Shown: piece by piece, positions 4,695 to 5,921 of the stretch
How positions within the stretch are numbered: the first letter of the stretch is position 1
How the letters are laid out: each line of letters opens with the position of its first letter
Origin: a virus
Taxonomy: Duplodnaviria; Heunggongvirae; Uroviricota; Caudoviricetes
Virus record (IMG/VR): IMGVR_UViG_2671180460_000014
Reading direction: 5' to 3' (one strand)
DNA: 16,482 nucleotides
Program-made: the position numbers and the translations under genes
The notes under the pieces: generated by a model
The model's input: the letters and a program-made list of their open reading frames with translations, nothing else
What the model was told of the DNA's origin: nothing
Databases searched by the model: none

Positions 4695-5921
4695 ATGCAT
4701 GGACTAGTTTTGACAACAGCCGGGGCAGCCGAAATTGAAGCTGCATATCATGCCGGTGAGGTGGTGACCATCAGTCAGGTGATGATTGGTGACGGGGGCG
4801 GGAAAACACTGCCCTCAACGCCGGATGAGATGGCGGCGATGGTCATGTTGTGTGGTGAGTTTGGTCGGGAGCCCTTTTCAGGCGGCGTGGTGGACGAAGG
4901 TTTTATCAGCGGGGATATTGTCATTGACTGTCAGTCATACCCGGGAAAGACCCTGCGCGAGCTGGGGATGGTGAGTCGCCGTGGCACGCTGATTGCGTAT
5001 GGTCGTTATCCGGATACGTATTTACCGGCACAGACGGATTCCGTTATCAAGGAGGTGATACTGACACTGGTTCTTGCGCTTACACATACACAGAGTGTAA
5101 CGCTGAATGTTGATCCGCACAGGGCGATTATCACGCAGGAGGCCGGAGATAAACGATATCTGCGTATCAGTGAAAATCTTGCTGATGTGAAAGACAGGGA
5201 TGAGGCTGTTGAAAACCTCGGATTAAAACCTACGGTGGACAAGGCAAAAAATGCCGTTCAGCGTGATGGCGACACCATGACAGGAAAGCTGACGCTGCCC
5301 CAGACCTCCGGATTTGGTGTTAACACTGACAATGCCCTGGGCGGTAACTCAATTGCTCTCGGAGATAACGATACCGGTATAAAGCAAAACGGCGACGGCA
5401 TTCTGGATGTTTATGCGAATGGTCAGCATGTATTTCGTTTTCAGAATGGCGTGGCGATGGCGTTAAAAAATATTCAGGCCGGAAATGGCAGAATGTTTAC
5501 GCTATCCAGTTCTGACAGTTCCACGAAGAACGTAGGGTTTAATTTATGGGGCAATCCATCCAGACCTGTAGTTGCAGAACTTGGTGATGATTCCGGCTGG
5601 CATTTCTACAGTCAGAGAAATACAGACGGTAGCGTCACATTCGCTGTAAACGGACAGATGACCCCATCAAACTACGCAAATTTTGATGCCCGCTATCAGA
5701 CAAAAACAGGTGGCGTGCAGAATTTTCAGTACACCAGTGAGGTGTTTTACAACCCGGGAGGGAACGAACTCAGCTGGACGTTCCGCGCACCGTCTGGTTG
5801 TACCCTGTCCGGTATTCTGGTTCAGGATACCGGCAGAAACTCTGCGGATAATATCGGTGGTGTGTATTACAAACAGGCCCAGATTTATATAAATGGCGCA
5901 TGGCGCTCAGTATCAGGTTAA
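4695..5921 (+). CDS. H: Tail fibre protein, P2 gpH-like (conserved N-terminal baseplate-attachment part, divergent C-terminal tip)
   Basis: ATG at 4695 (GTG at 4689 also possible). N-terminus ...LTTAGAAEIEAAYHAGEVVTISQVMIGDGGG... is gpH-like. GC drops from about residue 110-170 onward, and the gene is followed by tail fibre assembly genes. Confidence 0.8.
   Translation: MHGLVLTTAGAAEIEAAYHAGEVVTISQVMIGDGGGKTLPSTPDEMAAMVMLCGEFGREPFSGGVVDEGFISGDIVIDCQSYPGKTLRELGMVSRRGTLIAYGRYPDTYLPAQTDSVIKEVILTLVLALTHTQSVTLNVDPHRAIITQEAGDKRYLRISENLADVKDRDEAVENLGLKPTVDKAKNAVQRDGDTMTGKLTLPQTSGFGVNTDNALGGNSIALGDNDTGIKQNGDGILDVYANGQHVFRFQNGVAMALKNIQAGNGRMFTLSSSDSSTKNVGFNLWGNPSRPVVAELGDDSGWHFYSQRNTDGSVTFAVNGQMTPSNYANFDARYQTKTGGVQNFQYTSEVFYNPGGNELSWTFRAPSGCTLSGILVQDTGRNSADNIGGVYYKQAQIYINGAWRSVSG

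What the first reader, a model, noticed from the sequence alone, without database searches (positions are those of the whole stretch)
5000..5921. Compositional breakpoint inside the gpH fibre gene marks a swapped receptor-binding tip
The 5' part of H is GC-rich like the rest of the tail operon (about 62% GC by hand count in nearby 7100-7200). From roughly 5000-5200 onward the gene becomes markedly more AT-rich, and this continues into the downstream chaperones. This is the signature of a horizontally exchanged fibre C-terminus plus chaperone cassette joined to a conserved baseplate-attachment N-terminus.
Basis: seen in the sequence. Interest (0 to 1): 0.5.

Follow-up and report, generated by a model that had tools for sequence, protein, structure and literature searches.

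The report
Mosaic prophage tail-fibre tip and chaperones
The receptor-binding end of this E. coli prophage tail-fibre gene and its two downstream chaperone genes are lower-GC modules exchanged between unrelated phages; this is a clear but ordinary case of a process known since 1992.

Summary
H 4689-5096 is 54.7% GC, like the tail backbone (54.1%, not 62%). H 5097-5921 is 48.2%, lower than every equal-sized block in 11 backbone genes. tfa1 is 43.9% and tfa2 40.4%. The best-fitting low-GC island is 5346-7116. A change-point test within H alone is not significant (157 of 1000 shuffles).

Homology supports the interpretation. A prophage with 5 mismatches over 3000-5098 jumps to 14% divergence at 5099. 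It loses all similarity from 5724 to about 6966 and is near-identical again after 7053.

Fibres of Mu-type-tail prophages share no upstream DNA with the window but match from 5175 through tfa1 at 86-100%. Among isolated phages, the N half is closest to a Klebsiella phage (63%) and the C half to P2 gpH (57%). No isolated phage covers 80% of H.

Within the block, modules are shuffled independently. The tip allele always travels with the matching N-domain allele of the chaperone, as the Mu S/U structure predicts.

The second chaperone, tfa2, has no cognate tip, is rare, and is present or absent among prophages with an identical H.

The identical 408-aa H is already in many E. coli assemblies. Interest is low.

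The parts
4689..5098 (+). 5' part of fibre gene H (GTG 4689; RefSeq-style start ATG 4695). It encodes the tail-collar, baseplate-attachment domain and evolves with the backbone.
   Evidence: Pfam PF12571 matches residues 6-150 (E 2e-16). GC is 54.7%, equal to the backbone. It is 100% identical to PapRG-04-4 and 98.8% to C5, the same as the neighbouring gene I. Mu-type fibres have nothing corresponding.
5099..5291 (+). Linker (residues about 137-201, ...NLADVKDRDEAVENLGLKPTVDKAKNAVQRDGDTMTGKL). It is shared by P2-type and Mu-type fibres and is the left recombination zone.
   Evidence: Divergence from PapRG-04-4 jumps from 0.24% to 14% at 5099. Mu-type prophage fibres begin to match at 5175, at 91-93%. 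phiP27 matches window 5175-5281 at 90.7%. Mu gpS residues 123-223 align to H residues 129-227.
5292..5330 (+). Short-form junction (LPQTSGFGVNTD). It replaces a module of about 65-75 residues that most relatives carry.
   Evidence: Five P2-type relatives stop aligning at 5292 and a sixth at 5280; all resume by 5338. The 39 bases are 100% identical only in C5-type prophages, in L019 and in the Mu-type fibre of strain A8.
5331..5723 (+). Fibre shaft modules D (5331-5450), E (5451-5650, optional) and F (5651-5723).
   Evidence: Module E is absent from STEC309, P393-F10 and STEC276, and present in the P2-type relatives C5, PapRG-04-4, A10, CEA224S and RSHH22 and in the Mu-type A8. Identities are 79-93%. 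GC is 47.2% for 5292-5723.
5724..5921 (+). Receptor-binding tip of H (residues about 346-410), allele 'NFQYTSEVFYNPGGNE.SWTFRAPSGC...INGAWRSVSG'.
   Evidence: At least three tip alleles occur among relatives. This allele is in 186 of 5426 complete E. coli genomes, and the contexts inspected were Mu-type-tail prophages. It is homologous to the phiTE short tail fibre tip (PDB 9cuy, E 2e-15) and to the Mu gpS tip (PDB 5yvq_A), and to the P2 gpH C-terminus at 56.6%.
5935..6462 (+). tfa1, the cognate tail-fibre assembly chaperone. It has an N-domain (to about 6234) and a conserved C-domain.
   Evidence: Pfam PF02413 (E 8e-18). It matches Mu gpU, PDB 5yvq_B (E 8e-15). The N-domain allele co-occurs with the tip allele in all 11 fibre-chaperone pairs compared, counting the window. 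The C-domain recombines separately: it is 47-92% identical in relatives whose N-domain is 93-100% identical. GC is 43.9%.
6490..7023 (+). tfa2, a second chaperone paralogue on the same strand with no cognate tip in the window. It is the lowest-GC gene of the block.
   Evidence: Pfam PF02413 (E 9e-22). It matches Mu gpU (E 2e-17). It is 33% (N) and 39% (C) identical to tfa1. It is found in 14 of 5426 complete E. coli genomes, always after tfa1 in this phage family. Only 25 relatives turned up in the 5.8-billion-protein search. It is present in L019 but absent from L017, L018, L020 and C5, which all have the same H. GC is 40.4%, GC3 34.8%.
7041..7070 (+). Intrinsic-terminator-like hairpin ending the fibre operon. 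It marks the right edge of the exchanged block.
   Evidence: The stem has 9 pairs and is followed by a T-run. Near-identity to PapRG-04-4 resumes after 7053, and to C5 after 6968. The GC island ends at 7116.

Best explanation
H is a chimeric tail-fibre gene of an E. coli prophage that has a P2-type baseplate and tail.

The first roughly 135-160 residues form the tail-collar domain, which anchors the fibre to the gpJ/gpI wedge. This part is inherited with the tail backbone.

Everything from about 5099-5175 to the operon terminator at about 7050 is a set of interchangeable modules: linker, shaft modules, receptor-binding tip, the chaperone tfa1 and an extra chaperone tfa2. They come from a lower-GC pool that circulates among unrelated enterobacterial myoviruses (Mu-type, P2-type, P1).

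Exchange occurs by homologous recombination in short conserved stretches that flank each variable module. These stretches are the NLGLKPTVDKAKNAVQRDGDTMTGKL linker, the GDNDTGIKQNGDGILDVYANG motif, the NFDARYQTKTGGVQ motif and the conserved C-domain of Tfa.

The tip and the N-domain of tfa1 must move together, because that domain binds the tip while the fibre trimer folds. The Tfa C-domain is generic and recombines on its own.

The functional outcome is a change of host receptor specificity without touching the baseplate interface.

What is shown: the composition shift, the junction positions, the sharing of modules between unrelated tail types, and the tip-chaperone co-variation.

What is inferred: the recombination mechanism, the receptor-switch consequence, and the physical tfa1-tip binding (by homology to Mu S/U).
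For: Composition: searches give H 5' at 54.7%, H 3' at 48.2%, tfa1 at 43.9% and tfa2 at 40.4%, against a backbone of 54.1%. GC3 shifts in the same direction.

Sharp junctions:
- Against PapRG-04-4, divergence goes from 0.24% to 14% at 5099, and near-identity resumes after 7053.
- Against C5, there are no mismatches over 4986-6098. Divergence is then 14% from 6099, and identity returns after 6968.

Common indel junction at 5292/5331 in P2-type relatives.

Per-segment identity table:
- The Mu-type prophage of strain A8 is 93-100% identical over the linker, 5292-5330 and module D.
- It is 97-99% identical over the first 412 bases of tfa1 (5935-6346), while sharing nothing with genes I and J or the collar.
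- STEC309 is 76-84% identical on the backbone but 93-96% over 5935-7079.

Protein alignments show three tip alleles, each paired with its own Tfa N-domain allele.

Isolated phages have different best relatives for the two halves of H.

H and both Tfa proteins are homologous to Mu gpS/gpU of PDB 5YVQ. In that structure the non-conserved Tfa N-domain binds the fibre tip and the conserved C-domain mediates trimerisation (PMC9608196, summarising North et al. 2019).

Horizontal transfer of P2 H C-termini among unrelated phages is established (Haggard-Ljungquist et al. 1992, cited in PMC9594776).
Against: - Fibre and tfa genes are lower in GC than their backbone in every background examined, including the Mu-type prophages (46-48% against 52-54%). 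For the PapRG-04-4 tfa allele the deficit lies in codon positions 1-2 (GC3 51%). Part of the GC drop therefore reflects protein composition, not foreign origin.
- The tip itself has a GC3 of 53%.
- The within-gene change point is not significant on its own.
- The direction and order of the exchanges cannot be read from these data.
- Junction p-values are nominal, because the breakpoints were chosen after seeing the data.
Confidence: 0.88

Rival explanations
1. The GC drop reflects the amino-acid and codon make-up that fibre shafts and chaperones need, with no horizontal exchange. On this reading H and the tfa genes are vertically inherited and simply fast-evolving.
For: Fibre and tfa genes are low-GC in every prophage background examined, whatever the allele. 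For the PapRG-04-4 tfa allele GC3 is normal (51%) while total GC is 44%. The change point within H alone is not significant.
Against: GC3 also falls: 48.0% in H 3', 41.5% in tfa1 and 34.8% in tfa2, against 57.8% for the backbone. Divergence changes stepwise, not gradually. Modules that are 93-100% identical sit in prophages whose baseplate genes share no detectable DNA similarity. Relatives that are distant on the backbone are closer in the cassette (STEC309: 76-84% against 93-96%).
Confidence: 0.05
2. The tandem tfa1-tfa2 arrangement is the remnant of an invertible host-range switch of the Mu G, P1 C or e14 P type. In such a switch a site-specific invertase alternates two tips and their chaperones.
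For: Two Tfa paralogues lie next to one fibre gene, as in Mu (U and U'). The fibre and both Tfa proteins are homologous to Mu S and U.
Against: Both tfa genes are on the same strand. No inverted repeat of 14 bases or more occurs in 4600-7200. There is no alternative tip fragment: tfa2 ends at 7023 and the sheath gene starts at 7080. No ORF of 130 residues or more other than the two tfa genes, the sheath gene and its antisense shadow (6965-7753) lies between H and the sheath gene, so there is no room for an invertase.
Confidence: 0.03
3. tfa2 is the leftover chaperone of an earlier tip. An incoming tip-plus-tfa1 cassette recombined on its right side upstream of the resident tfa instead of inside it. 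The resident tfa2 stayed, is now dispensable and is being lost. This sub-hypothesis is compatible with the main explanation.
For: tfa2 has no cognate tip in the window. It is present or absent among prophages with an identical H. It is rare. Its nearest solo relative (52% identical) sits after a different fibre tip in another E. coli prophage.
Against: tfa2 is an intact 177-codon ORF, 96-99% conserved in protein between lineages that differ by 14-24% on the backbone. That argues for selection or for very recent spread. No relative was found in which tfa2 is the only chaperone of this phage family.
Confidence: 0.45

Closest known systems
Bacteriophage P2 tail fibre gene H and chaperone gene G (Haggard-Ljungquist, Halling & Calendar 1992, J Bacteriol 174:1462; cited in PMC9594776)
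   Same: The gene order is the same: J, I, H, then the chaperone, then the FI sheath operon. H has the tail-collar N-domain (PF12571). Its C-terminal 200 residues are 56.6% identical to the P2 gpH C-terminus. The C-terminus is shared with unrelated phages (Mu, P1, lambda-type).
   Different: H here is much shorter (408-410 residues). It lacks a shaft module that most of its own relatives carry. Two chaperone genes follow it instead of one. The phage has lambda-type head genes and not P2-type head genes. The N-domain has no close match to P2 at the level searched; its best isolated-phage match is a Klebsiella phage at 63%.
Phage Mu fibre gpS with chaperone gpU (PDB 5YVQ; North et al. 2019, as summarised in PMC9608196)
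   Same: The linker and tip of H align to gpS (E 5e-10). tfa1 and tfa2 align to gpU (E 8e-15 and 2e-17). The variable Tfa N-domain co-varies with the tip, and the Tfa C-domain is conserved and exchangeable. This is exactly what the structure-based model predicts.
   Different: There is no invertible G segment, no alternative S'/U' pair and no invertase. The N-terminal anchor is P2-type and not Mu-type.
Fibres of Mu-type-tail E. coli prophages that carry YmfQ and gp46/gp47 baseplate genes (e.g. strains A8 and STEC276; phiP27-like)
   Same: The linker, short junction, shaft, tip and tfa1 N-domain are 82-100% identical in DNA. The same second fibre pair (PF08400 protein plus DUF4376 protein) sits at the prophage end.
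   Different: The fibre N-terminus and the baseplate genes are entirely different. These prophages have a single tfa, with a different C-domain.

Membership tests
P2 gpH-type tail fibre | N-terminal tail-collar domain (Pfam PF12571) | tested here: met
   Residues 6-150, E 2e-16, 60.8 bits against a cut-off of 23.
P2 gpH-type tail fibre | Encoded directly after the baseplate wedge genes J and I | tested here: met
   PF04865 matches 3197-4111 and PF09684 matches 4104-4685.
P2 gpH-type tail fibre | C-terminal receptor-binding region homologous to the P2 gpH, Mu gpS and P1 S tips | tested here: met
   P2 gpH is 56.6% identical over residues 209-409. Mu gpS matches in PDB 5yvq_A.
P2 gpH-type tail fibre | Forms a trimeric fibre that binds a host surface receptor | not testable with these tools
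   This needs biochemistry or host-range assays.
Tfa chaperones (Caudo_TAP, Mu gpU type) | Pfam PF02413 above the gathering score | tested here: met
   tfa1 scores 65.3 bits and tfa2 78 bits, against a cut-off of 22.1.
Tfa chaperones (Caudo_TAP, Mu gpU type) | Homology to the solved Mu gpU | tested here: met
   tfa1 E 8e-15; tfa2 E 2e-17.
Tfa chaperones (Caudo_TAP, Mu gpU type) | The N-domain allele matches the tip allele of the adjacent fibre | tested here: met
   For tfa1, all 11 fibre-chaperone pairs compared (window included) agree. For tfa2 no cognate tip is present in the window, so the feature is not met for that gene.
Invertible fibre segments (Mu G, P1 C, e14 P, p15B Min) | Inverted-repeat crossover sites flanking the segment | tested here: not met
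   No inverted repeats of 14 bases or more in 4600-7200.
Invertible fibre segments (Mu G, P1 C, e14 P, p15B Min) | A second tip and chaperone in opposite orientation, with an adjacent invertase gene | tested here: not met
   Both tfa genes are on the + strand. The sheath gene follows 57 bases after tfa2. The ORF list leaves no room for an invertase next to the block.
Diversity-generating retroelement targets | A template/variable repeat pair and a reverse transcriptase | tested here: not met
   No direct repeats in 4600-7200. No ORF of 130 residues or more besides the two tfa genes, the sheath gene and its antisense shadow follows H in the block.

The most novel reading that the evidence does not exclude
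tfa2 is not a dead remnant. It is a maintained 'spare' chaperone: either a generalist that lets the phage accept incoming tip alleles without their own chaperone, or the assembly factor for the second fibre encoded at 12982-14406. On this reading the phage is a two-fibre myovirus whose fibre systems share chaperone capacity.
Probability: 0.12. Interest if true: 0.4.

Novelty: new member of a known kind. Interest (0 to 1): 0.15.

Why it matters
The locus adds no new principle. It is, however, an unusually clean natural map of where fibre and chaperone modules can be cut and rejoined: 5099-5175, 5292/5331, about 5450, about 5650-5723, 6099 and about 6346. The same modules sit on two unrelated baseplate anchors. 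That is practical guidance for engineering host range in P2-type phages and tailocins. It is also natural evidence for the structural rule that the tip and the Tfa N-domain form one unit while the Tfa C-domain is generic.

Tried and rejected
- A change-point test confined to H has too little power. The best point, 4990, is reached by 157 of 1000 codon shuffles. I replaced it with a comparison against contiguous backbone blocks.
- I looked for an invertible-segment or DGR explanation. There are no direct or inverted repeats in 4600-7200, and there is no room for an invertase or reverse transcriptase in the block. Both were rejected.
- A near-identity DNA search against isolated phages found only short patches, in Yersinia phages and phiP27. 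This prophage type has no close sequenced isolate in that collection.
- I tried to identify the cognate tip of tfa2. The closest solo relative is 52% identical and sits after a P2/Mu-type tip in another prophage. That is too distant to assign a partner.
- PMC206541 (the 1992 P2 paper) is not held in the library. It is cited through papers that reference it.
- I did not run structure prediction. A monomer model of an intertwined trimeric fibre would not have tested anything at issue.

Full report
**What is in the window**

The window holds the late region of an E. coli prophage.
- Baseplate genes V, W, J (3197-4111) and I (4104-4685).
- Fibre gene H (4689-5921; RefSeq-style ATG at 4695).
- Two same-strand chaperone genes, tfa1 (5935-6462) and tfa2 (6490-7023).
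- A terminator-like hairpin (7041-7070).
- The sheath, tube, E, tape-measure, U, X and D genes.
- A second fibre-like gene (12982-14406) with a DUF4376 gene.
- A truncated ydfJ from 15199.

These assignments rest. Copies of the same phage elsewhere show lambda-type head genes upstream.

**Check of the observation**

| Segment | GC | GC3 |
|---|---|---|
| 11 backbone tail genes | 54.1% | 57.8% |
| H 4689-5096 | 54.7% | 55.9% |
| H 5097-5921 | 48.2% | 48.0% |
| tfa1 | 43.9% | 41.5% |
| tfa2 | 40.4% | 34.8% |

- H 4689-5096 is typical of backbone blocks of the same size.
- H 5097-5921 is lower than every equal-sized contiguous backbone block, for both GC and GC3.
- A two-boundary fit over 3197-8555 puts the low-GC island at 5346-7116, at 43.2% against 54.4%.

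Corrections:
- The 62% reference value is unrepresentative. Positions 7100-7200 are 66% GC, but the operon averages 54%.
- The drop inside H is about 6.5 points.
- A change-point test confined to H (best point 4990) is not significant (157 of 1000 shuffles).
- The tip itself has normal GC3 (53%).

**Homology junctions**

I fetched related prophages from complete E. coli genomes and aligned them to the window.

PapRG-04-4:
- It has 5 mismatches to the window over 3000-5098.
- It then has 27 mismatches in the next 194 bases, starting at 5099.
- After an indel at 5292/5338 it continues at 88-90% to 5723.
- It shows no similarity until about 6967 and is near-identical again after 7053.
- Nominal Fisher tests give 3e-25 and 2e-8 for the two edges. 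The breakpoints were chosen after seeing the data.

Strain C5:
- It has no mismatches over 4986-6098.
- It diverges from 6099, lacks tfa2, and is identical again after 6968.

STEC309 is only 76-84% identical on the backbone but 93-96% identical over 5935-7079.

Five P2-type relatives stop aligning at 5292, a sixth at 5280, and all resume by 5338. They carry a module of about 65-75 residues that the window lacks.

**Sharing with an unrelated tail type**

Prophages with Mu-type baseplates (DNA circularization protein, gp46, gp47, YmfQ) in strains A8, STEC276 and UTME-13 show no DNA similarity to the window upstream of 5175.
- From 5175 they match the linker at 91-93%.
- A8 also matches the 39-base short junction at 100%.
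- A8 matches the shaft at 82-93% and the tip at 86%.
- A8 matches the first 412 bases of tfa1 at 97-99%.

The tip-plus-tfa1 unit is found in 186 of 5426 complete E. coli genomes. The contexts I inspected were Mu-type-tail prophages.

**Isolated phages**

No record covers 80% of H. Residues 5-199 are closest to Klebsiella phage ST16-OXA48phi5.4 (63%). Residues 209-409 are closest to P2 gpH, Yersinia phages, R18C, P1 and Wphi (55-80% over parts).

**Module structure and the chaperone rule**

The protein alignment of 11 fibres shows these parts:
- a collar domain, present only in P2-type fibres;
- the conserved linker NLxDV..NLGLKPTVDKAKNAVQRDGDTMTGKL;
- an optional module of about 70 residues, absent here;
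- the conserved motif GDNDTGIKQNGDGILDVYANGQHVFRFQNG;
- an optional module of about 65 residues, present here;
- the conserved motif VNGQ..P.NY.NFDARYQTKTGGVQ;
- one of at least three tip alleles.

The alignment of 13 Tfa proteins shows that each tip allele is paired with its own Tfa N-domain allele, without exception. The Tfa C-domain varies independently: it is 47-92% identical in proteins whose N-domains are 93-100% identical.

H aligns to Mu gpS, and both Tfa proteins align to Mu gpU of PDB 5YVQ. The H tip also aligns to the short tail fibre of Pectobacterium phage phiTE (PDB 9CUY, identified through PMC11972413).

In the Mu complex the non-conserved Tfa N-domain binds the fibre tip, and the conserved C-domain drives trimerisation (PMC9608196, summarising North et al. 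2019). The co-variation seen here is what that model predicts.

**tfa2**

- It is a bona fide Tfa paralogue, 33% (N-domain) and 39% (C-domain) identical to tfa1.
- It has no cognate tip in the window.
- It occurs in 14 of 5426 complete E. coli genomes, always after tfa1 in this phage family.
- Only 25 relatives appeared in the large protein search.
- Its best isolated-phage match is 43.5% (Fels-2 G-like).
- Among prophages with the identical H it is present in L019 and absent from L017, L018, L020 and C5.
- No repeats, no inverted second tip and no room for an invertase exist in the block. An invertible switch is therefore excluded.
- The most economical reading is a leftover or accessory chaperone. 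Its function is untested.

**How common the chimera is**

The 408-residue H is present, residue for residue, in NCBI E. coli assemblies; one cluster alone covers 56 contigs. The whole phage, 98.9% identical over 1-14947, sits at another chromosomal site in GCA_032670245.1. The chimera is therefore established and mobile, not private to this genome.

**Caveat on composition as evidence**

Fibre and tfa genes are lower in GC than their backbone in every background examined, Mu-type included. For one tfa allele the deficit lies in codon positions 1-2. Some of the signal is therefore protein composition. The case for exchange rests on the junctions and on shared modules, not on GC alone.

**Verdict**

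The phenomenon is the textbook mosaicism of tail fibres first shown for P2 H in 1992 (cited in PMC9594776). This is a new, well-resolved example of a known kind, and interest is low.

Noticed in passing
window 12982-14977: A second fibre system follows gene D: a 474-residue protein with the lambda Stf-type N-domain (PF08400) and a DUF4376 protein. The same pair ends Mu-type-tail prophages (A8, STEC276) and every copy of this phage at other integration sites. It therefore belongs to the phage, which would carry two kinds of fibre.
   Followed up: partly
window 1-2200 and loci L017-L020: The phage is a head-tail hybrid. It has lambda-type head genes (gpA terminase, gpW, portal, S49 protease, gpD-like, gpE-like capsid, FI) joined to a P2-type baseplate, sheath and tube module.
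   Followed up: partly
window 15199-16482: An N-terminally truncated ydfJ (MFS transporter) marks the right prophage-chromosome junction. In strains A8 and UTME-13 the same site is occupied by Mu-type-tail prophages. In GCA_032670245.1 the same phage sits next to NiFe-hydrogenase small-subunit-type genes (PF01058, PF14720) instead.
   Followed up: partly
locus L008 (E. coli RSHH22) 5001-7412: In this relative the gene annotated 'phage tail protein I' is 2412 bases long instead of about 585. This points to a large insertion or fusion between I and H.
   Followed up: no
window 4946-4985: A tight cluster of 5 mismatches to strain C5 sits inside an otherwise identical stretch of more than 2 kb. 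It looks like a short gene-conversion patch within the collar domain.
   Followed up: no
locus L016 (E. coli C5) 3456-4721: In C5 the second fibre gene after D is truncated. It abuts, in opposite orientation, another prophage's fibre, tfa and truncated PF08400 gene. This suggests recombination between two prophages through their fibre genes.
   Followed up: no
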